Shown here: piece by piece, positions 2,656 to 20,549 of the stretch
Numbering within the stretch: the stretch's first letter is position 1
How the letters are laid out: every line of letters begins with the position of its first letter
From: a virus
Virus genome (UHGV): UHGV-0179596
Length of the DNA: 41,620 nucleotides
Reading direction: 5' to 3' (one strand)
Made by a program: the position numbers and the translations under genes
Notes under the pieces: model-generated
The model's database searches: none
Told to the model about the DNA's origin: nothing
The model's input: only the letters and a program-made list of their open reading frames with translations

Positions 2656-2665
2656 TCAGTGGTTG

Positions 2666-4471: not shown

Positions 4472-4476
4472 CCGTT

Positions 4477-6019: not shown

Positions 6020-6162
6020 ATATCACCTTAAATAGTGGATTGCGGTAGTAAAGATTGTGCCTGTCTTTTAACCACATCAGGCTCGGTGGTTCTCGTGTAC
6101 CCCTACAACGAGAAATCGGATAAACTCTATTCACCCCTACAGAGAGCAAAAGAGAAACGCCG

Positions 6163-6744: not shown

Positions 6745-6760
6745 TTAGCAAATGAATTTA

Positions 6761-7033
6761 TCATCTCGCCGTCAGTTGTTTTGATTTCCGGTAGCCTGCC
6801 GCGTAAAGAGCTACGTTCGGAAGACAAGTTGAACCTTCATATTTTCTGGTCAACGTTGTCAGAGTTATCACTTCTGCTCTCATTGCTGGTTTGAGCTTGC
6901 ATTGCAAGACCACTCGTGAAGGGGTTGGCCTGTGTAGCTTGTCGGAGCTGATCGCCTCCTGACTTTGCAGATTTGCGCGACGAGCTCTACGGCGAGAAGC
7001 TGCGGTGCCTTTAAATTCTGTTTTTCTGGACAT
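6761..7033 (-). CDS. N: N-type transcription antiterminator (P22 gp24-like rather than lambda N)
   Basis: 90-aa reading from internal ATG at 7031-7033 preceded by SD GGGAGGA; arginine-rich motif GTAASRRRARRANLQ near N-terminus; C-terminus LPNVALYAAGYRKSKQLTAR resembles P22 gene 24 product from memory. Track ORF extends 24 codons further upstream. Confidence 0.8.
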   Translation of the reverse strand: MSRKTEFKGTAASRRRARRANLQSQEAISSDKLHRPTPSRVVLQCKLKPAMRAEVITLTTLTRKYEGSTCLPNVALYAAGYRKSKQLTAR

Positions 7034-7131
7034 GGATTCCTCCCGAATAAACTTTGGCGATGCAATCTCGAAGCTCCTCCTGAGACGGTTGCTTCGGCAT
7101 TGCATCCCACAGCTTATGTGGTTGGGTGATC

Positions 7132-7176
7132 TGGCTTTTCAGCCACGTAGTCGAGAGTCGACGTTGTTTAAAGAGC
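7132..7176 (-). promoter_or_regulatory. Candidate nutL (boxA GCTCTTTAA, boxB hairpin TGGC-TGAAAA-GCCA)
   Basis: On the minus strand a boxA-like GCTCTTTAA is followed about 20 nt later by a 4-bp GC stem with a UGAAAA loop, about 100 nt upstream of N; same architecture found at nutR. Confidence 0.5.
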
Positions 7177-7434
7177 CTGCCAGTCTGTTCCATTTGGCTT
7201 CCAGCGTCCTGCTGACGGTTAAATAGTACGATATGTACTTTACAAGATCAATACAATTTGTTGTAAGTTGGCGTGGTTTTTTATAACGCTTTGTATTTAA
7301 TAGTGTTGTTTTTTAGCGTGGATGTATTGCCTCGGCGATGTAAGGAGAGATCAGAATTGCGTGGTTTAGTGGGTTGCATCTATTTATTTTTCAATAAATA
7401 TAATTGGTTATGTGTTTTTAGGTGGGCGAACGTG
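7177..7434 (-). promoter_or_regulatory. pL / OL operator region (position-based)
   Basis: Non-coding AT-rich interval between the immunity-operon terminator and nutL; contains palindrome AGTACGATATGTACT and TACAA/TTGTA half-site repeats that recur in the cI-cro intergenic region. Operators not individually resolved. Confidence 0.45.
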
Positions 7435-7465
7435 AGGCAAAGAAAACCCGGCGCTGAGGCCGGGT
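7435..7465 (-). terminator. Intrinsic terminator closing the cI-orfA-orfB operon
   Basis: Minus-strand hairpin AACCCGGC-CTCAGC-GCCGGGTT followed by UUUUCUUUG, placed 5 nt after the orfB stop codon. Confidence 0.55.
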
Positions 7466-7469
7466 TGTA

Positions 7470-8222
7470 TTATGCTGCAAGTCTCTTAACCCAAGTCTCT
7501 CTTTTGGAGAATGGTAGAACTTGGCTTGATTCATGGAAGAGTAAGGAGAGTTGTTGCATTTGATCACCAATTGCTTCGCTGTCTATAACAACAAATCTGT
7601 TGTTATACTCCTCACTTGAAGCTTTAAGATCAATTAGTTTCCCAAGCAATGAGTAAGCACTATTCCAGCTTCCTCCGTGTTTCACGCTTGATGTAAAAAC
7701 GTATTTAGGTATGTCGGTTTTTATTGTTACAGGGACGGTAATTTGATGTCCACTCAAGCCATATACGTTTTCACGAAGAGAAAGTGCGTCTCTAAGCTCT
7801 GTGTGATATAGATAATCAATAACCATACTTTCAAACTTTTCAGCTTGAACTGGCTGATACCAGTCTAACGACAAAGTTGATGCGAGTATACCAGCTCTAA
7901 TTATGTTCGATGTAATCGCACCGACATCCTTTTCTGTTGCCCAAGCAATGATTTCTCCTCGAGCATTGAGTTCTGCGCCTTCTTTAAGCAGTAATTGTCG
8001 TATCTCATCAAGTCGTTTTTTGGTAAGCGAGATCCCTCTTGCCTCCATATTCATTAAGGCATCGCATCTGTCACTAACTAAATACCTACCATTGACTTCA
8101 CGGATAAAGGCACCGACATGCTCTCCATCATCACAGTAAGTGAATGGACTGATAATTCTCAAGGTCTTGCCTATTGGATGGCATTCGAAACCTAGTTGTG
8201 AGATCACTGTTGAGCACATCAT
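7470..8222 (-). CDS. Hypothetical protein, second gene of cassette at the rexB position
   Basis: 250-aa ORF with ATG start overlapping the upstream stop (ATGA at 8219-8222); terminator immediately downstream; no TM segments or catalytic motifs recognised by eye; AT-rich. Confidence 0.7.
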   Translation of the reverse strand: MMCSTVISQLGFECHPIGKTLRIISPFTYCDDGEHVGAFIREVNGRYLVSDRCDALMNMEARGISLTKKRLDEIRQLLLKEGAELNARGEIIAWATEKDVGAITSNIIRAGILASTLSLDWYQPVQAEKFESMVIDYLYHTELRDALSLRENVYGLSGHQITVPVTIKTDIPKYVFTSSVKHGGSWNSAYSLLGKLIDLKASSEEYNNRFVVIDSEAIGDQMQQLSLLFHESSQVLPFSKRETWVKRLAA

Positions 8223-8776
8223 ATTCCAAACCCCATTTGCCCCGACTCATCTTCAAGCGGTAAAGGTATTCTCCCAGAGTAAGTTATGTTCAGATGTTTA
8301 CAGAAGTAATTCCAATACCCTACCAGGTCATCTGGGTTTATGTCATCTTCGATTGGAAACGCTATTCTATCACTATAGTATCCAGCTTCTTCATAGTATA
8401 CATGGTAGTGAGCACCGTAAATGATATCTTGGTACTTCGGATGATCGACCTTGTAACTATTCGTGTGTTTGTCAAAGTGATAGGTATCTACCGCGAAAAC
8501 CCTCTTGTTATGATAGAAAGCAATAATATTTATTTTAGGGTAAGAAATCGGGTCATCAGGTTCTGAATCCTGATCTGGTTTCCATTTCAGTTCAAACTTT
8601 AGCCCTTGTATAGGTATACAATCCTCATCCAAGGGGATGATATGGGCTTGTAGCCACATATCAGAGCGACTTGGTTTCTGTTTCCATTTAACGCCAGAAA
8701 AGTTAACTATTTTTTTACAATAAAGTACTTTATCAACTTCTACTTGGCTTGGCTGATAATCATCTATTTTTGCCAA
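8219..8776 (-). CDS. Hypothetical protein, first gene of cassette at the rexA position
   Basis: 185-aa ORF starting 39 nt after cI stop; first in-frame start is TTG at 8774-8776 (next ATG at codon 40), so the true start is uncertain; aromatic/His-rich stretch HYHVYYEEAGYY; no family recognised. Confidence 0.65.
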   Translation of the reverse strand: MAKIDDYQPSQVEVDKVLYCKKIVNFSGVKWKQKPSRSDMWLQAHIIPLDEDCIPIQGLKFELKWKPDQDSEPDDPISYPKINIIAFYHNKRVFAVDTYHFDKHTNSYKVDHPKYQDIIYGAHYHVYYEEAGYYSDRIAFPIEDDINPDDLVGYWNYFCKHLNITYSGRIPLPLEDESGQMGFGI

Positions 8777-8815
8777 TGTTTACCGCCCTGTAAATTGTAG
8801 ATAAAAGTGGTTTCA

Positions 8816-9475
8816 TCACCCAAACGTCTCTTCAGGCCATTGGCTGGCGATAACTTTCCCCACAACGGAACAACTCTCATTGCATGGGATCATTGGGTAT
8901 TGTGGGTTTAGTGGCTGTAGAAACACCTGACCGCTATCCCTGATCAGTTTCTTGAAGGTAAATTCATCACCACCAAGTCTGGCTATGCAGAAATCGCCGG
9001 GCTCAACAGCTTGCTCAGGGTCAACCAGAATTAACATCCCGTCAGGAAAGCTGGGTTTGGAACCTGTTGGTGCGGTCATTGAGTTACCTTCAACCTCAAG
9101 CCAGAATGCAGAGTCACTGGCTTTTTTGGTTGTGCTTACCAATCTCTCCGCATCGCCTTTGGTAAAGGTTCTGAGTTCTGGAGAGAACATCCCAGCCTGA
9201 ACATGAGAAAAAACAGGGTACTCATATTGTTTTTTAACTGGGGCCGATGAGTATTCGCCAACAGGTGAAAATGTCCCGTCGTGGTTGAATGATATGTTAT
9301 CAATACCAAGGTATTTAAACACCACACCAATATCACTAAGAGATGGATGACGAGATCCGCGCAACCAGTGTCCAATCCCACCCTGCGTCATACCTAGCTC
9401 TTCGGCTAACTTCTCTTGAGTTATGCCGAGCTCTTTCATTCTGGATCTAGCCAGTTCATACCATTTCATTTTCAT
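8816..9475 (-). CDS. cI: CI repressor with lambda-type C-terminal autocleavage domain and non-lambda N-terminal HTH domain
   Basis: From [21 protein letters not shown] onward the sequence matches lambda cI to the C-terminus; N-terminal domain ([37 protein letters not shown]) differs. Start taken at MKMKW (ATG 9475, or 9469); track ORF begins 14 codons upstream. Confidence 0.92.
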
Positions 9476-9586
9476 GTCCTTATTATTACGCTCTGTACTG
9501 GAACCATCCATGCACAATGTGTATTTTTACTTGTATTCGCAAAGTACATATTGTATTTTTTTATTCGTGTTTACTATGGAGGGCAT
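9476..9586. promoter_or_regulatory. Divergent PRM/PR promoter and OR operator region (position-based)
   Basis: 111-bp AT-rich intergenic region between divergent cI and cro; contains TTGTA/TACA half-site repeats; individual operators not resolved. Confidence 0.6.
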
Positions 9587-9802
9587 ATGAGCAACCTACG
9601 AAAATATCGAGAGTCACTGAATATCTCTCAAACAACACTTGCTAAGGCAGTTGGATGCACACAGGGAGCTATCGGACATTGGGAATCTGGTCGTCGCTTC
9701 CCAGACCTTAAAACATGCCGTGCTCTTGTTGCGTGCCTAAACAAGTTAGGCGCAAAAGTCAGTCTTGATGACGTGTTCCCGCCGGAACACAAAGCCGCTT
9801 AA
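9587..9802 (+). CDS. cro: Cro-like repressor (XRE-type HTH)
   Basis: 71-aa reading from ATG 9587 with SD GGAGGG; HTH segment ISQTTLAKAVGCTQGAIGHWESG closely parallels the cI HTH (TQGGIGHW), implying shared operator specificity. Confidence 0.8.
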   Translation: MSNLRKYRESLNISQTTLAKAVGCTQGAIGHWESGRRFPDLKTCRALVACLNKLGAKVSLDDVFPPEHKAA

Positions 9803-9812
9803 TAAGCGGATC

Positions 9813-9857
9813 CGCTCTTTGTAACAACGGACATTCGTCCTACGTCGCTGAAAAGCG
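9813..9857 (+). promoter_or_regulatory. Candidate nutR (boxA CGCTCTTTGTAACAA, boxB hairpin TCGC-TGAAAA-GCGA)
   Basis: boxA-like CGCTCTTT just after cro stop, then about 20 nt later a 4-bp stem with UGAAAA loop; mirrors the nutL candidate in loop sequence and spacing. Confidence 0.5.
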
Positions 9858-9943
9858 AGTTCCAAGATATCTGACCAACTAAGGCCATATGCGTTTCCAC
9901 GCATACCTTTCAACTAACTATTCACTATTGGAAATCTTAAGAA

Positions 9944-10240
9944 ATGGAAAGAACAAGTTACAGCAAACTATCACAGCGTGACGTTGATCGCGCAGAAACA
10001 GATTTACTTATCAATCTGTCAGCTATTACCCAGCGCGGTCTGGCAAAGATGATTGGCTGTCATGAATCGAAGATAAGCAGAACGGACTGGAGATTTATTG
10101 CTTCGGTCTTGTGTGCTTTCGGAATGGCATCAGACATCAGTCCGATTAGCAGGGCTTTTAAGTATGCGCTTGATGGACTCACCAATAAAAAACGCCCGGC
10201 GGCAACCGAGCGTTCTGAACAAATCCAGATGGAATTCTGA
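9944..10240 (+). CDS. cII: CII transcriptional activator (hybrid: non-lambda N-terminus, lambda C-terminus)
   Basis: 98-aa ORF; C-terminal LTNKKRPAATERSEQIQMEF is identical to the lambda cII C-terminus as I remember it; N-terminal two thirds differ. Confidence 0.85.
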   Translation: MERTSYSKLSQRDVDRAETDLLINLSAITQRGLAKMIGCHESKISRTDWRFIASVLCAFGMASDISPISRAFKYALDGLTNKKRPAATERSEQIQMEF

Positions 10241-10272
10241 GGTCATTACTGGATCAATCCACAGGAGTCATT

Positions 10273-11172
10273 ATGACAAATACAGCAAAAATACTCAACT
10301 TCTGCAGAGGTAACTTTGCCAAACAGGAGCGTAATGTGGCAGATCTCGATGATGGTTACGCCAGACTATCAAATATGCTGCTTGAGGCTTATTCAGGCGC
10401 AGATCTGACCAAGCGACAGTTTAAAGTGCTGCTTGCCATTCTGCGTAAAACCTATGGATGGAATAAACCAATGGACAGAATCACCGATTCTCAACTTAGC
10501 GAGATTACAAAGTTACCCGTCAAACGGTGCAATGAAGCCAAGTTAGAACTCGTCAGAATGAATATTATCAAGCAGCAAGGCGGCATGTTTGGACCAAATA
10601 AAAACATCTCAGAATGGTGTATCCCTCAAAACGAGGGAAAATCCCCTAAAACGAGGGATAAAACATCCCTCAAATTGGGGGATTGCTATCCCTCAAAACA
10701 GGGGGACACAAAAGACACTATTACAAAAGAAAAAAGAAAAGATTATTCGTCAGAGAATTCTGGCGAATCCTCTGACCAGCCAGAAAACGACCTTTCTGTG
10801 GTGAAACCGGATGCTGCAATTCAGAGCGGCAGCAAGTGGGGGACAGCAGAAGACCTGACCGCCGCAGAATGGATGTTTGACATGGTGAAGACCATCGCGC
10901 CATCAGCCAGAAAACCGAATTTTGCAGGGTGGGCTAACGATATCCGCCTGATGCGTGAACGTGACGGACGTAACCATCGCGACATGTGTGTACTGTTCCG
11001 CTGGGCATGCCAGGACAACTTCTGGTCCGGTAACGTGCTGAGCCCGGCCAAACTCCGCGACAAGTGGACCCAGCTCGAAATCAACCGTAACAAGCAACAG
11101 GCAGGTGTGACAGCCTGCAAACCAAAACTCGACCTGACAAACACTGACTGGATTTACGGGGTGGATTTATGA
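10273..11172 (+). CDS. O: Replication initiator O
   Basis: 299-aa ORF matching lambda O; contains the ori iterons internally. Confidence 0.95.
   Translation: MTNTAKILNFCRGNFAKQERNVADLDDGYARLSNMLLEAYSGADLTKRQFKVLLAILRKTYGWNKPMDRITDSQLSEITKLPVKRCNEAKLELVRMNIIKQQGGMFGPNKNISEWCIPQNEGKSPKTRDKTSLKLGDCYPSKQGDTKDTITKEKRKDYSSENSGESSDQPENDLSVVKPDAAIQSGSKWGTAEDLTAAEWMFDMVKTIAPSARKPNFAGWANDIRLMRERDGRNHRDMCVLFRWACQDNFWSGNVLSPAKLRDKWTQLEINRNKQQAGVTACKPKLDLTNTDWIYGVDL
10621..10750 (+). repeat. ori-lambda: four iterons plus AT-rich region inside O
   Basis: Four imperfect direct repeats of about 19 bp (ATCCCTCAAAACGAGGGA-like) at roughly 10621-10706, followed by an A-rich tract (ACAAAAGAAAAAAGAAAAGATTATT). 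Confidence 0.85.
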
Positions 11173-11870
11173 AAAACATCGCCGCACAGATGGTTAATTT
11201 TGACCGTGAGCAGATGCGTCGGATCGCCAACAACATGCCGGAACAGTACGACGAAAAGCCGCAGGTACAGCAGGTAGCGCAGATCATCAACGGTGTGTTC
11301 AGCCAGTTACTGGCAACTTTCCCGGCGAGTCTGGCTAACCGTGACCAGAACGAACTGAACGAAATCCGCCGCCAGTGGGTTCTGGCTTTCCGGGAAAACG
11401 GGATCACCACAATGGAACAGGTTAACGCAGGAATGCGCGTAGCCCGTCGGCAGAATCGACCATTTCTGCCATCACCCGGGCAGTTTGTTGCATGGTGCCG
11501 GGAAGAAGCATCCGTTATCGCCGGACTGCCAAACGTCAGCGAGCTGGTTGATATGGTTTACGAGTATTGCCGGAAGCGAGGCCTGTATCCGGATGCAGAG
11601 TCTTATCCGTGGAAATCGAACGCGCACTACTGGCTGGTTACCAACCTGTACCAGAACATGCGGGCCAATGCGCTGACTGACGCGGAATTACGACGCAAGG
11701 CTGCCGATGAACTGACCTGTATGACAGCGCGAATTAACCGTGGTGAGACGATACCTGAACCAGTAAAACAACTTCCTGTCATGGGCGGCAGACCTCTAAA
11801 TCGTGTTCAGGCGCTGGCGAAGATCGCAGAAATTAAAGCTAAGTTAGGACTGAAAGGAGCAAGTGTATGA
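11169..11870 (+). CDS. P: Replication protein P (DnaB helicase loader)
   Basis: 233-aa ORF matching lambda P; ATGA overlap with O. Confidence 0.95.
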   Translation: MKNIAAQMVNFDREQMRRIANNMPEQYDEKPQVQQVAQIINGVFSQLLATFPASLANRDQNELNEIRRQWVLAFRENGITTMEQVNAGMRVARRQNRPFLPSPGQFVAWCREEASVIAGLPNVSELVDMVYEYCRKRGLYPDAESYPWKSNAHYWLVTNLYQNMRANALTDAELRRKAADELTCMTARINRGETIPEPVKQLPVMGGRPLNRVQALAKIAEIKAKLGLKGASV

Positions 11871-12157
11871 CGGGCAAAGAGGCAATTATTCATTACCTGG
11901 GGACGCATAATAGCTTCTGTGCGCCGGACGTTGCCGCGCTAACAGGCGCAACAGTAACCAGCATAAATCAGGCCGCGGCTAAAATGGCACGGGCAGGTCT
12001 TCTGGTTATCGAAGGTAAGGTCTGGCGAACGGTGTATTACCGGTTTGCTACCAAGGAAGAACGGGAAGGAAAGATGAGCACGAACCTGATTTTTAAGGAG
12101 TGTCGCCAGAGTGCCACGATGAAACGGATATTGGCGGTATATGGAGTTAAAAGATGA
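11867..12157 (+). CDS. ren: Ren
   Basis: 96-aa ORF matching lambda Ren (MTGKEAIIHYLGTHNSFCAPDVAALTG...); ATGA overlap with P. Confidence 0.9.
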   Translation: MTGKEAIIHYLGTHNSFCAPDVAALTGATVTSINQAAAKMARAGLLVIEGKVWRTVYYRFATKEEREGKMSTNLIFKECRQSATMKRILAVYGVKR

Positions 12158-12182
12158 CCATCTACATCACTGAGCTAATAAC

Positions 12183-12214
12183 AGGCCTGCAGGTAATCGC
12201 AGGCCTTTTTATTT
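12183..12214 (+). terminator. tR2-like intrinsic terminator
   Basis: Hairpin AGGCCTGC-AGGTAATC-GCAGGCCT followed by TTTTTATTT between ren and ninB, the lambda tR2 position. Confidence 0.6.
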
Positions 12215-12230
12215 GGGGGAGAGGGAAGTC

Positions 12231-12671
12231 ATGAAAAAACTAACCTTTGAAATTCGATCTCCGGCACATCAGCAAAACGCTATTCACGCAGTACAGCAAA
12301 TCCTTCCAGACCCAACCAAACCAATCGTAGTAACCATTCAGGAACGCAACCGCAGCTTAGACCAAAACAGGAAGCTATGGGCCTGCTTAGGTGACGTCTC
12401 TCGTCAGGTTGAATGGCATGGTCGCTGGCTGGATGCAGAAAGCTGGAAGTGTGTGTTTACCGCAGCATTAAAGCAGCAGGATGTTGTTCCTAACCTTGCC
12501 GGGAATGGCTTTGTGGTAATAGGCCAGTCAACCAGCAGGATGCGTGTAAGCGAATTTGCGGAGCTATTAGAGCTTATACAGGCATTCGGTACAGAGCGTG
12601 GCGTTAAGTGGTCAGACGAAGCGCGACTGGCTCTCGAATGGAAAGCGCGATGGGGAGATCGGGCTGCATGA
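12231..12671 (+). CDS. ninB: NinB (Orf homolog, recombination mediator)
   Basis: 146-aa reading from MKKLTFEIRSPAHQQ... matching lambda NinB; track ORF begins 6 codons upstream. Confidence 0.9.
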   Translation: MKKLTFEIRSPAHQQNAIHAVQQILPDPTKPIVVTIQERNRSLDQNRKLWACLGDVSRQVEWHGRWLDAESWKCVFTAALKQQDVVPNLAGNGFVVIGQSTSRMRVSEFAELLELIQAFGTERGVKWSDEARLALEWKARWGDRAA

Positions 12672-13195
12672 CTATCAAATCAAATACGCCAGCACACGAC
12701 AAGGACTGCTGGCAAACGCCGCTTTGGCTTTTTGATGCACTGGATATTGAGTTTGGATTCTGGCTGGATTCGGCAGCGAGCGACAAAAATGCTCTGTGCG
12801 CTCACTGGCTAACTGAGGACGACGACGCGCTCAATTCTGAGTGGGTAAGCCACGGTGCAATCTGGAATAACCCACCGTACAGCAATATCAGGCCGTGGGT
12901 GGAAAAAGCCGCTGAGCAGTGTATACAACAGCGACAGACGGTAGTGATGCTTGTGCCAGAGGATATGTCTGTCGGATGGTTCAGCAAGGCTCTGGAGAGT
13001 GTTGACGAAGTTCGTATTATCACTGATGGACGGATTAATTTTATCGAACCATCGACAGGGCTGGAGAAGAAGGGAAACAGCAAAGGCTCCATGCTGCTGA
13101 TTTGGCGACCGTTCATCAGTCCTCGACGGATGTTTACTACCGTATCCAAAGCGGCATTGATGGCGATCGGGCAGGGCGTCAGGAGGGCTGCATGA
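12668..13195 (+). CDS. Orphan DNA N6-adenine methyltransferase (phage Dam-like)
   Basis: 175-aa reading from ATG overlapping ninB stop (ATGA); contains NPPY motif (WNNPPYSN) characteristic of amino-methyltransferases; occupies the lambda ninC slot; no adjacent restriction gene. Confidence 0.8.
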
Positions 13196-13368
13196 GACGA
13201 CAGCGACGAAGCATCACCGACATAATCTGCGAAAACTGCAAATACCTTCCAACGAAACGCTCCAGAAATAAACGCAAGCTAATCCCAAAAGAATCTGACG
13301 TAAAAACCTTCAATTACACAGCCCACCTGTGGGATATCCGGTGGCTAAGATATCGTGCGAGGAAATGA
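13192..13368 (+). CDS. ninE: NinE
   Basis: 58-aa reading [58 protein letters not shown] matching lambda NinE; ATGA overlap with methyltransferase. Confidence 0.8.
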
Positions 13369-13712
13369 CAATGGATTATTCACAGTTAAGTGATTTTGAA
13401 ATTAACAGAATGGTAGGAGACATAATTTTTAAAGGCCTTTGGGCAAGTAAACCGGAAACATCAGGGAATAACACCAACAAATGGTATTACGGAAATGCTG
13501 ATACAACTTTTGAGCCATTAAATCATTTGCCTGACTACTGCAATGATCCGAGCGCTTCATGGCCGATTATTGAGAAATACAGGATTTCTATCTTAGACCA
13601 GTTAACTGAATGGTGTGTGGATGCAAAAGGCGTAAGCCCAATATTTGATACCAGACCTCTCCGCGCCGCCATGATTGTCTTTCTCCTGATGCAGGAGGCC
13701 AATAATGCTTAG
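13365..13712 (+). CDS. Hypothetical nin-region protein
   Basis: About 115-aa ORF starting at ATG overlapping ninE stop; no family recognised. Confidence 0.55.
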
Positions 13713-13899
13713 CCCATCTCAATCCCTTCAATACCTGAAAGAAAGCATAGAGCGGGCTTCAATGTGCACAGAGTGGATTCTATCTAGGTTTAGCGCATAC
13801 AGAAGATTGCCGGTAAAGGGCATGCCAAGCAAGTCGATGCTGCATATGCAAAAGAATGCGCGCTGGAAGGTATGGCGAGAACACAGGTTATGTGGCTGA
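13705..13899 (+). CDS. Hypothetical small protein
   Basis: 64-aa ORF whose ATG overlaps the upstream stop (ATGCTTAG); translational coupling is the main support. Confidence 0.45.
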
Positions 13900-13918
13900 A
13901 AGAGGGGGTTATTAAGGC

Positions 13919-14281
13919 GTGAATACCTACAGCATCACATTACCCTGGCCTCCGAGCAATAATCGCTATTACCGCCATAATCGCGGGCGCACGCACGTCA
14001 GCGCAGAGGGGCAGGCATACCGCGATAACGTCGCCCGAATCATTAAAAACGCAATGCTGGATATCGGCCTGGCTATGCCTGTGAAAATCCGCATTGAGTG
14101 CCACATGCCGGATCGCCGTCGCCGTGACCTGGATAATCTGCAAAAAGCCGCTTTTGACGCACTCACTAAAGCAGGTTTCTGGCTGGATGATGCTCAGGTC
14201 GTTGATTACCGCGTTGTGAAGATGCCTGTTACCAAAGGTGGGAGGCTGGAACTGACCATCACCGAAATGGGGAATGAATGA
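13919..14281 (+). CDS. rusA: RusA Holliday junction resolvase
   Basis: 120-aa ORF with GTG start and SD AGAGGGGG; sequence matches E. coli DLP12 RusA as I recall it. Confidence 0.93.
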
Positions 14282-14418
14282 TGTTTGAGTTTAATATGGC
14301 AGAACTTCTTCGCCACCGCTGGGGGCGTCTGCGCTTATATCGTTTCCTCGGTTCTGTTTTGACCGATTACCGAATACTGAAGAATTACGCCAAAACCCTG
14401 ACAGGAACAGGAGTATGA
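14278..14418 (+). CDS. ylcG: YlcG-like small protein
   Basis: 46-codon ORF translated by hand ([46 protein letters not shown]), overlapping rusA stop; resembles DLP12 ylcG by recall. Below track cutoff. Confidence 0.45.
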
Positions 14419-14503
14419 AGTCAGAGATAACAATCAACTAATACTGTTTTGTTGATTTTTGCTTGTAATTGGCGTTCTGGTCTGATTTTTGTGGAGTAAG
14501 TTG

Positions 14504-14887
14504 ATGCGTGATATTCAGATGGTTCTTGAGCGTTGGGGTGCGTGGGCGGCTAATAATCATGAAGATGTGACCTGGTCGTCCATTGCCGCCGGTTTTAAGG
14601 GATTAATTCCTTCAAAAGTAAAATCTCGCCCGCAATGTTGTGACGATGACGCGATGATCATTTGCGGGTGCATGGCCCGTCTGAAAAAGAACAACAGCGA
14701 TTTACACGATTTATTAGTAGATTATTATGTATGTGGTATGACATTCATGTCACTGGCAAGTAAGCATTGCTGCTCGGATGGTTATATCGGGAAAAGGTTA
14801 CAGAAGGCTGAGGGCATAATTGAAGGGATGTTAATGGCATTAGATATCCGGTTAGATATGGATATCGTTGCTAATAATTCTAATTGA
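14504..14887 (+). CDS. Q: Late-gene antiterminator Q (phage 21 / QuuD type)
   Basis: 127-aa reading from [21 protein letters not shown]...; Cys-rich motifs ([18 protein letters not shown]); matches DLP12 QuuD by recall. Track ORF starts at an upstream TTG. Confidence 0.85.
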
Positions 14888-14914
14888 TATGCAATTGTTT
14901 ACTAAAAGTTATTA

Positions 14915-14937
14915 AAAATGGGGCGTGGAAACGCCCC
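14915..14937 (-). terminator. Putative terminator downstream of nmpC (minus strand)
   Basis: Hairpin GGGGCGT-TTCC-ACGCCCC followed on the minus strand by AUUUUUAAUAACUUUU; lies between Q stop and porin 3' end. Coordinates approximate. Confidence 0.45.
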
Positions 14938-15024
14938 CAAAATAAAGGGTAATATATAACAGAAGGTTTATATAGTAAGAAGCAAGGTAGTGCTTCTAAA
15001 GGAAGTGGCTTGAGGGCTCCACTT

Positions 15025-15065
15025 ATATGTTGCGGAGGCAAAGCCTCCCGCAACATATCTTTTTC
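15025..15065 (+). terminator. Strong plus-strand hairpin terminator after Q (candidate tR')
   Basis: Near-perfect 14-bp inverted repeat ATATGTTGCGGAGG-CAAAG-CCTCCCGCAACATAT followed by CTTTTT, about 140-180 nt after Q stop and abutting the nmpC 3' end. Confidence 0.5.
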
Positions 15066-15075
15066 GTAAGTCAGA

Positions 15076-16158
15076 TTAGAACTGATAAACCAGACCTACA
15101 GCGACGATGTCGTCGGTATCAATACCAGCTGTTTTGGTAAACTTACTATCGTCAATTAAGTTGATTTTGTAATCAACAAAAGTGGACATGTTTTTATTAA
15201 AGTAGTAAGTAGCACCGACATCGACATACTTGACTAAGTCTCGGTCACCATGAACACCAAGGTCTTTACCTTTTGACTGAAGGTAAGCAACAGATGGACG
15301 CAGACCGAAGTCAAACTGATATTGTGCTACTGCTTCAAAGTTTTGTGCTTTGTTTGCAATATGGTTATTACCAAAAACGGTCATATTCTGAGTTTCAGAA
15401 TATGTGGTAGCCAGATAGATATTGTTCGCATCATATTTCAGGCCTGCAGCCCATACTTCCGCATTTTTGCCGGAGGCATTGAATTTGCTCTTACCATAGG
15501 CGACCTGACCGTCAGTGCGATCTGATTTAGCATAGGTTGCACCCACGCCGAATCCTTCATACTCATAAGTAGTGGAGAAACCGAAACCATCACCATTGGC
15601 TTCAGTTACGTCAGTGCGGTCATTTTTACCCTGATACTGAGCAGCAAAGTTCAGGCCATCGACCAGACCAAAGAAGTCGTTGTTACGATAAGTTGCAACA
15701 CCAGTAGTGCGACCAGTCATGAACACATCTGTTTGGGTCCAGGTATCGCCACCGAATTCTGGCAGAACGTCAGTCCACGCACCGATGTCGTATGCTACAC
15801 CGTAGTTACGGCCGTAATCGATTGAGCCGTAATCACCAAATTTCAGGCCTGCAAATGCAAGACGGGTTTTGTCTTTGGAAGAACCTTGAGATTCAGCACG
15901 GTTGCCTTTGAATTCATATTCCCACTGACCGAAACCAGTCAGTTGATCGTTGATTTGGGTTTCACCTTTGAAGCCAAGACGGGCATAAGTAGTATCACCA
16001 TCATCTGCATCATTAGAGGAGAAGTAGTGCTTGGCATTAACTTTCCCGTATAGATCCAGCTTGTTACTGTCTTTATTATAAATTTCAGCTGCCTGAGCAG
16101 ACATCGCCATCAGTACTGATGCAGCTACAGCAGAAATTGCCACTGTTAATTTTTTCAT
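15076..16158 (-). CDS. nmpC: Outer membrane general porin, OmpC/OmpF/PhoE family (NmpC-like, apparently intact)
   Basis: Signal peptide [23 protein letters not shown] then mature porin ending in the C-terminal aromatic VYQF; matches my recollection of E. coli NmpC. Start taken at MKK (16158); track ORF starts 20 codons upstream at a non-ATG codon. Confidence 0.92.
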
Positions 16159-16584
16159 TGTACGCCCTTTTTTTGAACTATTATTAAAAAATGATGTCAC
16201 TGCGCGATAAATATTCATCTAATCAATGTGATTATTTCAAGATGTAAGTTTTAGTTTCTCATTTAATTTGTGAAGTAGATCTCTATTTTTATCTGAACCT
16301 TTTCTATCTAATCCTATTCATGGCTCTTGTCTGAACAAAAATAAATCTATTAGCTAATTTATATTAATGGCACTTATTTATAAGTGCTCTATAATTCTTT
16401 AGCTTAATTTAAACAAACTAAAAATAACATTGGAAATTATTAACTGGTTATTTGTTGAAGTTTTCTTATGCATTTGTGGTGGTGTTTTGAACACTCGGTG
16501 GCATTCTCACAAATATCATTTAGTAGTTTACGTACGTAAAAAATTGGTTATGCTGTTAAGAGTGGTTACTTCGTCACACAGCTT

Positions 16585-16962: not shown

Positions 16963-17459
16963 TGCCTCCATCATTACGAAAAGCCGTTGCTGCTGCTATT
17001 GGTGGCGGAGCAATTGCTATAGCATCAGTGTTAATCACTGGCCCAAGTGGTAACGATGGTCTGGAAGGTGTCAGCTACATACCATACAAAGATATTGTTG
17101 GTGTATGGACTGTATGTCACGGGCATACAGGAAAAGACATCATGCTCGGTAAAACGTATACCAAAGCAGAATGCAAAGCCCTCCTGAATAAAGACCTTGC
17201 CACGGTCGCCAGACAAATTAACCCGTACATCAAAGTCGATATACCGGAAACAATGCGCGGCGCTCTTTACTCATTCGTTTACAACGTGGGTGCTGGCAAT
17301 TTCAGAACATCGACGCTTCTTCGCAAAATAAACCAGGGCGATATCAAAGGCGCATGTGATCAGCTACGTCGCTGGACATATGCTGGCGGTAAGCAATGGA
17401 AAGGTCTCATGACTCGTCGTGAGATTGAGCGTGAAATCTGTTTGTGGGGTCAGCAATGA
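16962..17459 (+). CDS. R: SAR endolysin (lysozyme, phage 21 R21 type)
   Basis: 165-aa ORF with N-terminal signal-anchor-release segment ([20 protein letters not shown]) and lysozyme body; matches R21 by recall; start overlaps S stop. Confidence 0.92.
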
Positions 17460-17917
17460 ACAGAGTAACCGCGATTATCTCCGCTCTGGTTATCTGCATC
17501 ATCGTCTGCCTGTCATGGGCTGTTAATCATTACCGTGATAACGCCATTACCTACAAAGCCCAGCGCGACAAAAATGCCAGAGAACTGACGCTGGCGAACG
17601 CGGTAATTACTGACATACAGATGCGTCAGCGTGATGTTGCTGCGCTCGATGCAAAATACACGAAGGAGTTAGCTGATGCGAAAGCTGAAAATGATGCTCT
17701 GCGTGATGATGTTGCCGCTGGTCGTCGTCGGTTGCACATCAAAGCAGTCTGTCAGTCAGTGCGTGAAGCCACCACCGCCTCCGGCGTGGATAATGCAGCC
17801 TCCCCCCGACTGGCAGACACCGCTGAACGGGATTATTTCACCCTCAGAGAGAGGCTGATCACTATGCAAAAACAACTGGAAGGAACCCAGAAGTATATTA
17901 ATGAGCAGTGCAGATAG
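17456..17917 (+). CDS. Rz: Rz inner-membrane spanin
   Basis: 153-aa reading from [21 protein letters not shown]... with N-terminal TM segment and coiled-coil body; overlaps R stop. Confidence 0.88.
17676..17858 (+). CDS. Rz1: Rz1 outer-membrane lipoprotein spanin
   Basis: 60-aa ORF embedded in Rz in the +1 frame; lipobox VVVGC and proline-rich PPPPPAW segment; matches lambda Rz1 by recall. Confidence 0.85.
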
Positions 17918-17948
17918 AGCTGCCCATATCGATGGGCAACTCATGCAA

Positions 17949-18242
17949 TTATTGTGAGCAATACACACGCGCTTCCAGCGGAGTATAAATGCCTAAAGTA
18001 ATAAAACCGAGCAATCCATTTACGAATGTTTGCTGGGTTTCTGTTTTAACAACATTTTCTGCACCACCACAAATTTTTGCTGCATCGACAGTTTTCTTCT
18101 GCCCAATTCCCGAAACGAAGAAATGATGGGTGATGGTTTCCTTTGGTGTTACTGCTGTAGGTTTGTTTCCAACAGTAAACGTCTGTTGAGCACATCCTGT
18201 AATAAGCATTGCCAGAGCGGCAGAAAACAACATTTTTTTCAT
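17949..18242 (-). CDS. bor: Bor lipoprotein (serum resistance, Iss family)
   Basis: 97-aa reading from MKKMLFSAALAMLITGCAQQTFTV... with lipobox ITGC; matches lambda Bor. Track ORF begins 16 codons upstream. Confidence 0.9.
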   Translation of the reverse strand: MKKMLFSAALAMLITGCAQQTFTVGNKPTAVTPKETITHHFFVSGIGQKKTVDAAKICGGAENVVKTETQQTFVNGLLGFITLGIYTPLEARVYCSQ

Positions 18243-18722
18243 CTTATTATCCTGCATTGTTAAAAACGGCAGAATCCTATGTGACAACAATTAAACGATA
18301 GTTAAATGGATTGATGAAAATTAAAACTACACAGGTGGGCTCAGACTATTGGAGGAAGTTGGGGACACTCAGAATCCTGTGGAATGAAATAAACCGGTCT
18401 ATCCGTCCATTACCCTTTTAGCTGCGCTGTATCGTCGCCGTATTCCCGCATTAACCATGACCGTAGCCCGACGGGGAATTCCTTCTGCGTGAGTGTGCGG
18501 GAATAATTAAAAACGATGCACACCGGGTTTTTACCGCGTTAATGATTCGCGGGTTTATCCCGGTGCGATGGTGGAAGAAACAGGAAGCTGTATTACAGAA
18601 AGTGCTACTACTGTATCCCGATGCGATGTATGTAATGTGAGTCAGATAATGGCACAGGATGTGGTGATGTGGCAGTCTGGAACACAGGATATATTGTCAG
18701 AATAAGACCCGTAGGAATAAAA

Positions 18723-19049
18723 ATGAAAAGACGCCTTTTACTACTTTTTCTGTTATCTGTCCTGGCAGTGGGATGCTCGCAGCAAAAAGCTGATGAGCCC
18801 CGGCAATTAGTGACGGTGTATCCACGATATCCGGAATATGCTGCAGCAAATTATATCAAGGGGCTGGTTGAGGTTAAGTTCGATATTGGTGCTGATGGGA
18901 CTGTGACACGGATCGTTTTTCTCCGCTCAGAGCCTCATAATTTGTTTCGTGATGAAGTGGTGAAGGCCATGGCGAAATGGCGATTTGAAAAGAATCGCCC
19001 CTGTCAGGGAGTGAAGAGACAATTTATCTTTACGCCGTCACGTCCTTGA
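18723..19049 (+). CDS. Putative lipoprotein with TonB C-terminal-like domain
   Basis: 108-aa reading from MKRRLLLLFLLSVLAVGC (lipobox LAVGC) with SD AGGAA; body YPRYPEYAAANYIKGLVEVKFDIGADGTVTRIVFLRSEPHNLFRDEVVKAMAKWRFE resembles the TonB C-terminal domain signature. Confidence 0.65.
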   Translation: MKRRLLLLFLLSVLAVGCSQQKADEPRQLVTVYPRYPEYAAANYIKGLVEVKFDIGADGTVTRIVFLRSEPHNLFRDEVVKAMAKWRFEKNRPCQGVKRQFIFTPSRP

Positions 19050-19171
19050 TGCTTCCAGGTAGAGAGGGGCTGGAAGCAGGAGAAAAATGAAAGAGCCAGC
19101 GGTTATATTTTTGTCATGGCTGACGAGGAATGATGGAAGAAGGCGTTGTATGCCACACAACGCCTCACTGT

Positions 19172-19525
19172 TCATTTCTTCTTTTTCTCTGGTGGAACCC
19201 GATGAATAAGAGTTGCACTGGTTTCCGATGAGATGGCGATATACTCGGGCAAAGTATGCTGGCAGTTTTCCAACTGGTCAAAAATACCTGCTCTCGTCTG
19301 TTGCAATGCCTGCAGCATGCGGCGGCAATGCGCCTTGCTTTTACTAACCATCTTTCCTTCCTCTATCAGTCGCTGCGTGAACTCATCATGGAATACCAGG
19401 TAAATGCGGATGTTATCGGTTTTGGCTACGCAGCATAGTACAAAACGGACAGGTGCATCCCGGGACGGGGGAGGCGTCACATGTCCCTGTGATGGTTGTT
19501 CCGGGTAATGTACTGTGTGGGGCAT
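19172..19525 (-). CDS. Hypothetical ORF (uncertain)
   Basis: 117-aa ORF with no SD at its first ATG; an internal ATG (MVSKSK, 59 aa) has SD AGGAAGGA; overlaps the next ORF in another frame; ends in KKKK. Confidence 0.25.
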   Translation of the reverse strand: MPHTVHYPEQPSQGHVTPPPSRDAPVRFVLCCVAKTDNIRIYLVFHDEFTQRLIEEGKMVSKSKAHCRRMLQALQQTRAGIFDQLENCQHTLPEYIAISSETSATLIHRVPPEKKKK

Positions 19526-19664
19526 AAAAATGTCCGATAATTTTACTTTCTACCGCAGTTAGTTGATTCGTTGGTCCTGGTAGCACATTGGGCGAGGATT
19601 TAAATGCCAGGCAACTGAAGGATGATGTCGCAAGGGAGATAGCGAGAATATTTCTGATTTTCAT
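19413..19664 (-). CDS. Hypothetical small exported Cys-rich protein (uncertain)
   Basis: 83-aa reading from MKIRNILAISLATSSFSCLAF (signal-peptide-like) with SD AGAGG; C-terminus TGTCDASPVPGCTCPFCTM. Mutually exclusive in part with 19172..19525. Confidence 0.3.
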   Translation of the reverse strand: MKIRNILAISLATSSFSCLAFKSSPNVLPGPTNQLTAVESKIIGHFYAPHSTLPGTTITGTCDASPVPGCTCPFCTMLRSQNR

Positions 19665-19812
19665 TTGATGATGCCTCTGTGTGAAATGACGGTAAACGAC
19701 GCACTTGTGCCGGCACATAATAGCAAGCACCATAATAGATCAGATTCGATTCTTGCTGTAAGTGATAATTATTCTCGTTTTCGGGTCCTTTCCGTCGATC
19801 CAACAGGTTACG

Positions 19813-19824
19813 GGGCGGCGACCT
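19813..19824 (+). other. cosN cohesive-end site (lambda type)
   Basis: Exact GGGCGGCGACCT, the lambda 12-nt cohesive end, about 190 bp upstream of nu1, flanked by lambda-like ...CAGGTTACG and CGCGGTTTTTCACTATTTATGAAAATTTT. Confidence 0.85.
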
Positions 19825-20000
19825 CGCGGTTTTTCACTATTTATGAAAATTTTTCAGGGAAAATCGTGTCGGTACTTCTCGAATATAACTTTTTGTTTTT
19901 TTTAATATTGCATCCGTAAAGGTCCGACATGAAAGTGTCCGAAAATGCCTTTTTCTGGCGTTTTCATGTCGGGCCTTGTATTTGATAATGGGTTGTTTTC

Positions 20001-20549
20001 ATGAAGGTTAATAAAAAGAGGCTTGCCGAAATTTTCAACGTGGACCCGCGGACGATTGAACGCTGGCAGTCTCAGGGACTCCCTTGCGCCTCCAAAGGTA
20101 GTAAGGGCATTGAATCTGTATTTGATACTGCCATGGCAATTCAGTGGTATGCGCAGAGGGAAACTGATATCGAAAACGAAAAGCTCCGCAAAGAACTGGA
20201 CGATTTGCGTGCGGCAGCGGAGTCAGATTTACAACCCGGCACCATTGACTATGAACGCTACCGGCTCACAAAAGCGCAGGCAGATGCGCAGGAACTGAAA
20301 AATGCCCGTGAAGACGGAGTAGTGCTGGAAACTGAACTGTTTACCTTCATTCTGCAACGTGTGGCACAGGAGATTTCGGGGATACTTGTGCGTGTGCCGT
20401 TGACATTACAGCGTAAATATCCGGACATTTCACCATCACACCTTGATGTGGTGAAAACTGAAATCGCGAAAGCCTCCAATGTTGCAGCTAAGGCCGGTGA
20501 AAACGTGGGCGGGTGGATCGATGATTTCAGACGCGCAGAAGGCAGCTAA
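20001..20549 (+). CDS. nu1: Terminase small subunit
   Basis: 182-aa ORF beginning [28 protein letters not shown] (winged-HTH N-terminus), homologous to lambda Nu1, immediately downstream of cos. Confidence 0.9.

What the first reader, a model, noticed from the sequence alone, without database searches (positions are those of the whole stretch)
17949..19049. Divergent pair of lipoprotein morons after the lysis genes: bor and a TonB-C-like lipoprotein
bor (a serum-resistance lipoprotein) is transcribed divergently from a second lipoprotein gene whose mature part resembles the TonB C-terminal domain. A lipid-anchored TonB-C-like module could interfere with TonB-dependent outer-membrane transporters, which are receptors for many phages and colicins, so it may be an exclusion or fitness factor expressed in the lysogen.
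Basis: partly seen in the sequence, partly recalled or inferred. Interest (0 to 1): 0.5.

Follow-up and report, generated by a model that had tools for sequence, protein, structure and literature searches.

The report
Prophage lipoprotein made of TonB's C-terminal domain
A lambdoid prophage gene found in about 30% of complete E. coli genomes encodes only the receptor-docking end of the TonB energy transducer, fused to an outer-membrane lipid anchor; it probably jams TonB-dependent uptake, the route used by several phages and colicins, but nobody has tested this.

Summary
A 108-aa lipoprotein gene lies at 18723-19049 on the plus strand. Its mature part is a complete TonB C-terminal domain (Pfam TonB_C E 7e-13; AlphaFold model 1.0 Å rmsd from TonB in the BtuB complex).

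The gene is real and constrained: dN/dS is about 0.12, and it occurs in 1617 of 5426 complete E. coli genomes. An identical copy in E. coli LF82 is transcribed from the silent prophage. It is already annotated ("TonB family protein", "TonB C-terminal domain protein"). I found no functional study.

bor and this gene are not a unit; each occurs without the other, and they are regulated differently.

Two new points:
- Relatives at 33-72% identity in E. coli, Salmonella, Klebsiella, Rahnella and unassigned viral contigs occupy the same slot, between the spanin genes and the terminase, in the late sense.
- Most lineages carry a Fur-box-like motif about 30 nt before the start codon. The window allele has lost it.

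The most likely function is an uncoupled TonB decoy at the inner face of the outer membrane (confidence 0.45). Interest 0.5.

The parts
17949..18242 (-). bor/iss lipoprotein gene (97 aa, lipobox LITGC). It is an independent moron, not functionally tied to the TonB-like gene.
   Evidence: Pfam Lambda_Bor E 1e-30. 100% identical to the UTI89 protein named Iss. In LF82, log2 expression rises from about 4.4 to about 11 between conditions (log2FC 7.1), while the TonB-like gene stays flat.
18243..18722 (.). 480-bp spacer between the two genes. The part left of about 18531 belongs to the bor module shared with lambda and 434. The part from about 18532 travels with the TonB-like gene.
   Evidence: Megablast matches to phages that have bor but lack the TonB gene stop at query position 632, which is window 18531. 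The upstream region from about 18564 aligns with the JLK-2012 allele. No sigma-70 consensus site of 9/12 or better on the plus strand. No Fur box.
18695..18703 (+). Candidate extended -10 element TGTCAGAAT (TGTTAGAAT in the JLK-2012 allele). This is an inferred promoter of the moron.
   Evidence: Conserved between the two E. coli alleles. In the JLK-2012 allele it scores 9/12 with a TG extension. Lysogen transcription is shown only by the LF82 RNA-seq. The assignment is an inference.
18712..18713 (+). Site of a 13-bp gap relative to the JLK-2012 allele. The gap removes the right arm of the AT-rich palindrome AGAATAAGAC/TTATTCT, which sits where relatives carry a Fur box.
   Evidence: Pairwise alignment A5. 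Fur-motif scores: window 7/14 and 10/19; JLK-2012 allele 9/14 and 13/19; Salmonella 14/14.
18723..19049 (+). Gene for the 108-aa lipoprotein whose mature part is a TonB C-terminal domain.
   Evidence: Annotated CPT_21_73 'TonB C-terminal domain protein' in phage 21 and 'TonB family protein' in RefSeq.
18723..18776 (+). Signal peptide with lipobox (residues 1-18; Cys18 codon at 18774-18776). The +2 residue is Ser, which predicts sorting to the outer membrane.
   Evidence: Read directly from the sequence. The lipobox Cys lies at position 16-21 and +2 is S, T, A or V, never Asp, in all 14 lineages. The sorting rule is established knowledge; processing was not tested.
18798..19031 (+). TonB_C fold, residues 26-103, equivalent to E. 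coli TonB 153-230. Only 7 residues separate the lipidated Cys from the domain.
   Evidence: phmmer alignments to 1u07, 2gsk and 2grx. AF2 strands 47-55, 61-70 and 94-103; helices 38-42 and 76-83; pLDDT 97-98. Foldseek to 2gsk_B: rmsd 1.0 Å, TM 0.92. Linker lengths.
19812..19823 (.). cosN region (context). The gene is the last sizeable gene before the right end of the virion DNA and lies inside the late transcription unit.
   Evidence: The phage 21 record ends at the position equivalent to window 19812, and its cosQ maps to 19783-19789. The sequence GGGCGGCGACCT is seen.

Best explanation
[quoted passage not shown] A 7-residue tether holds a complete TonB C-terminal domain against the periplasmic face of that membrane.

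The protein has no inner-membrane anchor and no proline-rich spacer, so it cannot transmit energy. It is proposed to act as an uncoupled competitor. It would occupy the TonB boxes of TonB-dependent transporters (FhuA, BtuB, FepA, CirA and others) by the same strand addition to beta-3 that TonB uses. Alternatively, it would trap the scarce native TonB by pairing with its C-terminal domain.

Either way, TonB-dependent steps would be damped. These include irreversible adsorption of phages such as T1 and phi80, import of group B colicins and microcins, and, as a cost, siderophore and B12 uptake.

It is made at a low constitutive level from the prophage and also lies in the late operon. In most relatives the gene appears to be under Fur control, so it would be switched on when iron limitation derepresses the transporters.

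Shown here: domain identity, fold, lipobox, purifying selection and a conserved genomic slot. Shown in the literature: lysogen transcription of an identical copy. Inferred: lipidation, outer-membrane location, binding partner, and any exclusion phenotype.
For: - **Complete TonB docking domain.** Pfam TonB_C E 7e-13. 38-40% identical to E. coli TonB 151-230. The model fits TonB from the BtuB and FhuA complexes at rmsd 0.9-1.0 Å.
- **Beta-3 is present.** This is the strand that pairs with the TonB box (PMC11658791). It corresponds to residues 94-103. The YP motif and the aromatic positions equivalent to TonB Y163, F180, F202, W213, Y215 and F230 are all kept (alignment A1).
- **No energy-transducing part.** NCBIfam TonB equivalogs score 45-69 bits against cutoffs of 265-448, and only over the C-terminal region.
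- **Anchor conserved.** Lipobox, a non-Asp +2 residue and a short 6-14 residue tether are found in all 14 lineages.
- **Precedent.** Overexpressed periplasmic TonB domain inhibits iron import. T5 Llp is an outer-membrane lipoprotein that acts on the periplasmic face of FhuA, on a surface that TonB binding partly occludes.
- **Functional constraint and success.** dN/dS 0.12. Present in 1617 of 5426 complete E. coli genomes.
- **Expressed from the prophage.** Flanking late genes are silent in the same data.
- **Predicted link to iron and TonB physiology.** Fur-box-like motifs sit at about -30 in most lineages.
- **Mobile cargo.** The gene is carried by phages and by a plasmid, where it lies close to a Qat defence system.
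Against: - No binding or phenotype data exist.
- Residues that E. coli TonB uses for specific contacts with transporters are replaced: R158 to T31, Q160 to Y33, R166 to Y39. Position 166 is a conserved Tyr in the lipoprotein family. The partner or binding mode may therefore differ. The role of these TonB residues is from my own knowledge of the 2006 complex structures and suppressor genetics.
- A strong general block of TonB would be costly in iron-limited hosts. Yet the gene is common in uropathogenic and adherent-invasive strains (UTI89, LF82) that depend on siderophores.
- Co-induction with the iron-uptake regulon in relatives, and chromosomal copies in Gibbsiella and in unassigned metagenome contigs, fit a helper role as well as a brake.
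- It has not been checked whether a 7-residue tether allows the canonical docking geometry under the barrel.
- Transporters greatly outnumber a weakly expressed decoy.
Confidence: 0.45

Rival explanations
1. A non-inhibitory accessory of iron acquisition. As a Fur-regulon outer-membrane lipoprotein, it would use the TonB_C fold to organise or prime transporters, for example by holding released TonB boxes, or to bind a periplasmic ligand, as the TonB homologue FusB binds ferredoxin. It would be carried by prophages as a fitness gene for iron-poor niches.
For: Fur-box-like motifs overlap the promoter region in most lineages, including chromosomal copies. In LF82 the same prophage also carries the sitABCD metal importer as a moron. 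FusB's C-terminal domain is among the best structural matches, and a solved complex shows it binding ferredoxin (entries 7zc8 and 9hi3). The gene is common in pathogens that need siderophores.
Against: No known mechanism lets an outer-membrane-anchored TonB domain help an energy-dependent step. The only experimental precedent for an uncoupled TonB domain is inhibition. The window allele has lost the Fur motif and is constitutive.
Confidence: 0.2
2. An envelope or host-interaction lipoprotein unrelated to the transporters. The TonB_C fold would serve as a generic periplasmic binding module, for example to peptidoglycan or another envelope protein, and would contribute to envelope robustness, serum survival or macrophage survival, like neighbouring morons such as Bor/Iss.
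For: It sits beside bor/iss, in a prophage that also carries a porin moron at 15076-16218. The contact residues R158, Q160 and R166 are not conserved. TonB's C-terminal domain has been reported to associate with peptidoglycan (my own knowledge, not checked here).
Against: In LF82 it is not induced in the DMEM and macrophage conditions where Bor rises more than 100-fold. The predicted Fur control in relatives points to iron and TonB physiology. The beta-3 edge and the YP motif are conserved.
Confidence: 0.15
3. A late-lysis accessory that works with the spanins, as the PHROG label 'Rz-like spanin' implies.
For: PHROG 1267 carries that label. In several independent prophage lineages the gene lies directly downstream of the Rz/Rz1-type genes and in the late sense. 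It is an outer-membrane lipoprotein, as o-spanins are.
Against: No similarity to Rz. It has no C-terminal transmembrane segment, so it is not a u-spanin, and it is not short and proline-rich like an o-spanin. The phage has its own complete Rz and Rz1. It is transcribed in the lysogen while Rz is silent. Relatives also occur on chromosomes and a plasmid without lysis genes. The slot after the lysis genes is a general moron site, as bor shows.
Confidence: 0.07
4. A functionless fragment of a captured tonB gene ('partial TonB', 'TonB fragment').
For: Older annotations use these words.
Against: dN/dS is 0.12. The ORF is intact and at least 99% identical in 1202 genomes. It has a dedicated signal peptide and lipobox, conserved down to 33% identity. 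It is only 38-40% identical to host TonB, so it is not a recent capture. It is transcribed.
Confidence: 0.03

Closest known systems
TonB energy transducer of E. coli (C-terminal domain, residues about 150-239; PDB 1u07, 2gsk, 2grx)
   Same: Same domain and fold: three strands and two helices, rmsd about 1 Å, 38-40% identity. The YP motif, the aromatic core and the beta-3 strand that pairs with TonB boxes are present.
   Different: It lacks the N-terminal membrane anchor and the proline-rich spacer, so it cannot couple to ExbB/ExbD. It is anchored by lipid to the opposite membrane. R158, Q160 and R166 are replaced by T, Y and Y.
Engineered periplasmic TonB fragments (Howard, Herrmann, Stratilo and Braun 2001, J Bacteriol 183:5885)
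   Same: An uncoupled TonB C-terminal part placed in the periplasm, which inhibited iron import through TonB-dependent transporters (summarised in PMC9841981).
   Different: Those were soluble, overexpressed laboratory constructs of E. coli TonB itself. This is a natural, diverged, lipid-anchored protein expressed at a low level. The paper itself could not be read here.
Phage superinfection-exclusion lipoproteins Llp (T5) and Cor (phi80, N15, HK022)
   Same: Small phage-encoded lipoproteins of the outer-membrane inner leaflet that act on a TonB-dependent transporter from the periplasmic side. For Llp, acylation is needed for an active complex, and its binding surface on FhuA is one that TonB binding partly occludes.
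   Different: No sequence or fold relationship: no Llp or Cor hit appears among the Pfam, PADLOC or PDB fold matches. Llp and Cor are specific for FhuA, the receptor of the phages that carry them. This gene is not tied to one receptor-binding J type: the window and Perceval share the gene, but their J C-termini are only 42% identical. A TonB-box decoy would be generic.
Lambda Bor / Iss lipoprotein morons
   Same: Small outer-membrane lipoprotein genes in the slot between lysis genes and cos, expressed from the prophage.
   Different: Unrelated fold and family, opposite orientation, different regulation.

Membership tests
TonB_C domain (Pfam PF03544 / TIGR01352) | Profile match above the curated threshold | tested here: met
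   PF03544 49.2 bits against 24.6, E 7.3e-13. TIGR01352 47.4 bits against 27.1.
TonB_C domain (Pfam PF03544 / TIGR01352) | [quoted passage not shown] | tested here: met
   AF2 model pLDDT 88, with 97-98 in the core. Foldseek to 2gsk_B: TM 0.92, rmsd 1.0 Å. The top 12 hits are all TonB or FusB C-terminal domains.
TonB energy transducer (TonB proper) | N-terminal inner-membrane anchor and proline-rich periplasm-spanning spacer; full-length equivalog score | tested here: not met
   108 aa. The N-terminus is a cleavable lipoprotein signal, and 7 residues link Cys18 to the domain. NCBIfam TonB equivalogs score 45-69 bits against cutoffs of 265-448, matching profile positions about 150-240 only.
TonB energy transducer (TonB proper) | Binding of transporter TonB boxes by strand addition to beta-3 | not testable with these tools
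   Beta-3 (residues 94-103) and the YP motif are present.
Bacterial lipoproteins (signal peptidase II substrates) | Positive n-region, uncharged hydrophobic core, and lipobox [LVI][ASTVI][GAS]C with Cys at about 15-35 | tested here: met
   MKRRLLLLFLLSVLAVGC; Cys18; no charged residue in positions 8-17. Conserved in 14 lineages. Based on sequence pattern only.
Bacterial lipoproteins (signal peptidase II substrates) | Actual lipidation and outer-membrane sorting (no Asp at +2) | not testable with these tools
   The +2 residue is Ser, and S, T, A or V in all lineages. This predicts Lol-dependent outer-membrane sorting by the established +2 rule. No experiment.
Spanins (label of PHROG 1267) | i-spanin or o-spanin pair, or u-spanin with lipobox plus C-terminal transmembrane segment; similarity to Rz or Rz1 | tested here: not met
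   BLASTP against the window's Rz gives E 15. The C-terminus VKRQFIFTPSRP is not hydrophobic. Rz and Rz1 are already present at 17456-17917 and 17676-17858. The PHROG label is probably an annotation error.
Llp/Cor superinfection-exclusion lipoproteins | Sequence or fold similarity to Llp or Cor | tested here: not met
   The only Pfam hit is TonB_C. No Llp structure appears among the PDB fold matches. No PADLOC hit.
Moron (lysogenic-conversion gene) | Transcribed from the repressed prophage, independently of flanking late genes | tested here: met
   Literature data for a 100% identical copy. LF82 Perceval PERCE_65: log2 5.0-6.6 in all conditions, against 2.3-4.3 for Rz and the small terminase subunit; listed as 8-fold above background. 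No consensus promoter was found by scanning.
Fur regulon | Fur box (GATAATGATAATCATTATC, or 7-1-7 TGATAATnATTATCA) at the promoter | tested here: not met
   Window allele: best 10/19 and 7/14, which is background level. Met by motif in relatives: Salmonella 14/14; four further lineages 13/14; the Klebsiella lineages, Gibbsiella and the P0050 lineage 14-15/19. Background windows reach 13/14 or better in 0.9% of cases. Fur binding was not tested.
Lambda Bor/Iss family (for the bor gene) | Profile match and lipobox | tested here: met
   PF06291 106 bits against 25. Identical to the RefSeq 'Iss' protein WP_001298464.1.

The most novel reading that the evidence does not exclude
A family of mobile 'TonB decoys' is spread among Enterobacterales prophages, with related copies on a plasmid and on chromosomes. 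These are lipid-anchored, outer-membrane-tethered copies of TonB's docking domain, mostly Fur-controlled. When iron limitation derepresses the transporters, they would lock all TonB-dependent gates at once. That would protect the lysogen against a whole class of phages (T1 and phi80 type), group B colicins and siderophore-microcins, a broader exclusion principle than the single-receptor Llp and Cor proteins. The phage-21-type allele carried by about 22% of complete E. coli genomes would be a derivative that lost Fur control and became constitutive.
Probability: 0.35. Interest if true: 0.7.

Novelty: new variant of a known kind. Interest (0 to 1): 0.5.

Why it matters
TonB-dependent transporters are the entry points for siderophores, vitamin B12, many phages, colicins, microcins and 'Trojan horse' siderophore antibiotics.

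If nearly a third of complete E. coli genomes, and prophages of Salmonella and Klebsiella, carry a protein that damps TonB coupling, several things could change. It would alter susceptibility to TonB-dependent phages used in therapy, to colicins and microcins in gut competition, and possibly to siderophore-conjugated drugs such as cefiderocol. It would also add a generic mechanism to the list of prophage-encoded exclusion systems.

If the protein instead helps iron uptake, it is an uncharacterised Fur-regulon virulence or fitness gene carried by phages.

Either outcome can be tested with one plasmid and standard assays.

In practical terms, the annotations 'TonB family protein', 'TonB fragment' and 'Rz-like spanin' (PHROG 1267) are all misleading. 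'TonB C-terminal domain lipoprotein' would be accurate.

Tried and rejected
- **Fur box or consensus sigma-70 promoter upstream of the window gene.** None was found. The best Fur match is 10-11/19. The only plus-strand promoter candidates score 8/12.
- **Link between the gene and a particular receptor type, as for Cor and Llp.** Rejected. The window's J C-terminus is 100% identical to PhiR47_2, 1H12 and Lambda_4B5 and 46% identical to lambda J. Perceval carries the identical TonB-like gene with a J C-terminus only 42% identical. The receptor of this J type was not determined.
- **bor and the TonB-like gene as a coupled pair.** Rejected.
- **Known defence families.** No PADLOC hit for this gene or its small neighbours.
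- **Known RNA families in 17400-20100.** Only chance-level hits, E about 0.4.
- **Spanin reading of the PHROG label.** Rejected.
- **Pseudogene reading.** Rejected.
- **Literature.** Eight full-text searches found no functional study of this protein or of any TonB_C lipoprotein. The O157 proteome and RpoS papers do not mention it. The Howard 2001 paper is not held, so it is cited through PMC6042079 and PMC9841981.
- **Technical failures.** Alignment-based locus searches found no usable conserved stretch. Modelling a complex with a TonB box is not possible with the tools given.
Full report
**1. What is in the window**

The window is a lambdoid prophage in integrated gene order: integrase at 1-1143, then early genes, lysis genes, cos, terminase at 20001 onward, and tail genes.
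- Positions 1-16000 are 100% identical to Escherichia phage PhiR63_2.
- Positions 17900-19800 are 100% identical to the right end of classical phage 21 (OL657228), to PhiR47_2, and others.
- By the phage 21 annotation, the region reads S21 pinholin, SAR endolysin, Rz/Rz1, bor (opposite sense), a 45-aa ORF, 'TonB C-terminal domain protein' (CPT_21_73), two small ORFs, cosQ and cosN.

- bor is at 17949-18242 on the minus strand. It is 97 aa (Pfam Lambda_Bor E 1e-30) and identical to the protein RefSeq names Iss in UTI89.
- The second gene is at 18723-19049 on the plus strand. It is 108 aa, preceded by AGGA at 18713-18716.

**2. The second gene is a lipoprotein consisting of a whole TonB C-terminal domain**

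The N-terminus MKRRLLLLFLLSVLAVGC|SQQ has a positive n-region, an uncharged hydrophobic core and the lipobox LAVGC. Ser at +2 predicts sorting to the outer membrane by the established +2 rule.

Residues 24-103 align without gaps to E. coli TonB 151-230.
- Pfam TonB_C E 7.3e-13; TIGR01352 above its cutoff.
- phmmer to 1u07, 2gsk and 2grx at E about 1e-14.
- An AlphaFold2 model built on a 53-sequence alignment has pLDDT 88, with 97-98 in the core. Strands are at 47-55, 61-70 and 94-103; helices are at 38-42 and 76-83.
- The model superimposes on TonB from the BtuB complex at rmsd 1.0 Å (TM 0.92) and from the FhuA complex at 0.9 Å. The twelve best PDB matches are all TonB or FusB C-terminal domains.

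With window residue n equal to TonB residue n+127:
- The YP motif (Y36-P37) and the aromatic positions F53, F75, W86, F88 and F103 (TonB F180, F202, W213, Y215, F230) are kept.
- T31, Y33 and Y39 replace R158, Q160 and R166. That those three TonB residues contact transporters is from my own knowledge of the 2006 structures and suppressor genetics.
- Beta-3, the strand that pairs with the TonB box (PMC11658791), is present.

The protein is not a TonB. It has no membrane anchor and no proline-rich spacer. NCBIfam TonB equivalogs reach only 45-69 bits against cutoffs of 265-448.

**3. It is a real, constrained and very common gene**
- Two E. coli alleles, 72% identical in protein (window type and JLK-2012/Stx1a-phage type), give dN/dS of about 0.12. 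dS is near saturation, so the value is rough.
- The gene is in 1617 of 5426 complete E. coli genomes: at least 99% identical in 1202, and the 60-80% variant in 392. It is annotated 'TonB family protein' in all 29 full-length rows listed.
- It is therefore not new as an annotation. The names in circulation are 'partial tonB-like membrane protein', 'TonB fragment', and the PHROG 1267 label 'Rz-like spanin'.
- The spanin label fails every test: no similarity to Rz, no C-terminal membrane segment, and the phage has its own Rz and Rz1.

**4. Expression**

Prophage Perceval of strain LF82 carries a 100% identical copy. Published RNA-seq lists it as a moron, 8-fold above local background (PMC9928086). 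In the supplementary tables:
- Its log2 level is 5.0-6.6 in every condition (log2FC 0.26).
- The adjacent Rz and small terminase genes are at 2.3-4.3.
- Bor rises from about 4.4 to about 11 (log2FC 7.1).
- Host tonB changes (log2FC 1.36).

So the gene has its own promoter active in the lysogen, it is constitutive, and it is regulated independently of bor. No consensus sigma-70 site was found. A conserved extended -10-like TGTCAGAAT at 18695-18703 is a candidate. Because the gene lies in the late sense between Rz and cos, it should also be transcribed from pR' late in lytic growth; this is an inference.

**5. bor and the TonB-like gene are not a pair**
- Phages with bor but without the TonB-like gene (434, lambda-like isolates) match the window only up to about 18531.
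- Conversely, the TonB-like gene occurs without bor in JLK-2012, Klebsiella phage ST13-OXA48phi12.4, a Salmonella prophage type, a Rahnella prophage and a further lineage of viral contigs.

**6. A wider family with a fixed slot**

An exhaustive HMMER search found short lipoproteins of 107-133 aa at 33-46% identity. Cluster names place them in Salmonella enterica, Klebsiella species, Rahnella, Gibbsiella and Erwinia/Pantoea.

Across 173 loci I defined 14 lineages at 80% identity. All have a lipobox Cys at position 16-21 and S, T, A or V at +2, never Asp. Where the conserved first Pro of the domain could be placed (13 of the 14), only 6-14 residues separate it from the Cys. The domain is therefore always held close to the membrane that carries the TonB boxes.

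In six prophage lineages, with unrelated holins, endolysins and terminases, the gene lies between the spanin genes and the terminase and in the late sense. More distant members are different:
- Some are chromosomal (Gibbsiella, next to ahpC; a metagenomic lineage).
- One is on a plasmid, directly after the ParM/StbB partition genes and close to a Qat defence system.

**7. A predicted link to iron regulation**

A Fur-box-like 7-1-7 motif (TGATAATnATTATCA) lies about 27-38 nt before the start codon in several lineages, and about 58-65 nt before it in two.
- Salmonella TGATAATTATTATCA: 14/14.
- Four other lineages: 13/14, one of them also 16/19 to the classical 19-mer.
- Klebsiella lineages, Gibbsiella and another chromosomal lineage: 11-12/14 and 14-15/19.
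- Only 0.9% of background 100-nt windows from the same loci reach 13/14, and that count includes the true sites.
- The motif variants differ between lineages whose proteins are 35-60% identical, so the motif is conserved rather than simply inherited unchanged.

The window allele has no such motif (7/14, 10/19). Compared with the JLK-2012 allele, it has a 13-bp gap between 18712 and 18713 that removes half of an AT-rich palindrome at the equivalent position. This agrees with its constitutive expression in LF82. Fur binding itself is untested.

**8. Mechanism**

The best-supported reading is an uncoupled TonB decoy at the inner face of the outer membrane. It would compete with TonB for TonB boxes, or trap TonB itself. 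It would thereby damp TonB-dependent entry of phages and colicins, at some cost to iron uptake.

Support comes from:
- the intact docking domain;
- the conserved short lipid tether;
- the laboratory precedent that periplasmic TonB domains inhibit transport (Howard 2001, via PMC9841981);
- the analogy with T5 Llp, a lipoprotein acting on the periplasmic face of FhuA, on a surface that TonB binding partly occludes;
- carriage by phages and a plasmid;
- the predicted co-regulation with the transporters.

Against it:
- the replaced contact residues;
- the likely fitness cost in siderophore-dependent pathogens that nonetheless carry the gene;
- chromosomal Fur-box-bearing relatives, which fit a helper role as well;
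- unverified docking geometry;
- unfavourable stoichiometry.

I put this reading at 0.45. The rivals are a non-inhibitory iron-uptake accessory (0.2), an envelope or host-interaction lipoprotein unrelated to the transporters (0.15), a lysis accessory (0.07) and a dead fragment (0.03).

**9. Verdict**

The gene is already annotated but functionally uncharacterised in everything I could search. As a mechanism it would be a new variant of a known kind: phage lipoproteins that act on TonB-dependent transporters from the periplasm. Interest 0.5. The question is cheap to settle experimentally, and the gene is very widespread.

Noticed in passing
L004:327-341, L019, L006, L018, L032 and others (upstream of homologues); absent at window 18623-18722: Fur-box-like 7-1-7 motif at a near-constant distance (about -27 to -38, or -58 to -65 in two lineages) before the start codon in most lineages of the TonB_C lipoprotein family. 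The window allele lacks it and shows a 13-bp gap at 18712/18713 relative to the JLK-2012 allele.
   Followed up: yes
PHROG 1267 (hit of window 18723-19049): The PHROG family that contains this protein is labelled 'Rz-like spanin'. The protein has no spanin features, so the label looks like an annotation error that will propagate to phage genomes.
   Followed up: partly
window 19172-19348 (-): A 58-aa minus-strand ORF matches PHROG 4843 (unknown function) at E 3e-46 over the whole profile. The phage 21 record annotates two small plus-strand ORFs in this stretch instead, and RefSeq annotates one, so the gene calls between the TonB-like gene and cos may be on the wrong strand.
   Followed up: no
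window 19413-19661 (-): ORF of 82 aa beginning MKIRNILAISLATSSFSCLA, which looks like a signal peptide, just left of cos. It has no Pfam, PHROG, NCBIfam or PADLOC hit and is not annotated in phage 21 or UTI89. It may be chance.
   Followed up: no
window 15076-16218 (-): A full-length porin gene (Porin_1 E 2e-151, NmpC/OmpD-like) in the nin/Q region on the opposite strand. Together with Iss/Bor and the TonB_C lipoprotein, this prophage carries three outer-membrane morons. In LF82 the porin is 10-fold above background.
   Followed up: partly
window 6163-6744 (+): A SieB-type superinfection-exclusion gene (Pfam SieB E 2.5e-22) in the immunity region.
   Followed up: no
window 19051-19077: Perfect 8-bp inverted repeat GCTTCCAG-N11-CTGGAAGC directly after the stop codon of the TonB-like gene. 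It has no T-run, so it is not a classical terminator; its role is unknown.
   Followed up: no
P0036, P0043, P0047 and similar: Among the best library matches are 480-510-aa proteins with four or five tandem TonB_C stretches. Their nature was not examined.
   Followed up: no
L013:5348-5737 and neighbours: A plasmid-borne family member lies directly after ParM/StbB partition genes and close to (about 1.5 kb upstream of) a KAP NTPase-QatB-TatD (Qat-like) defence cluster. This suggests the gene travels with defence cargo.
   Followed up: no
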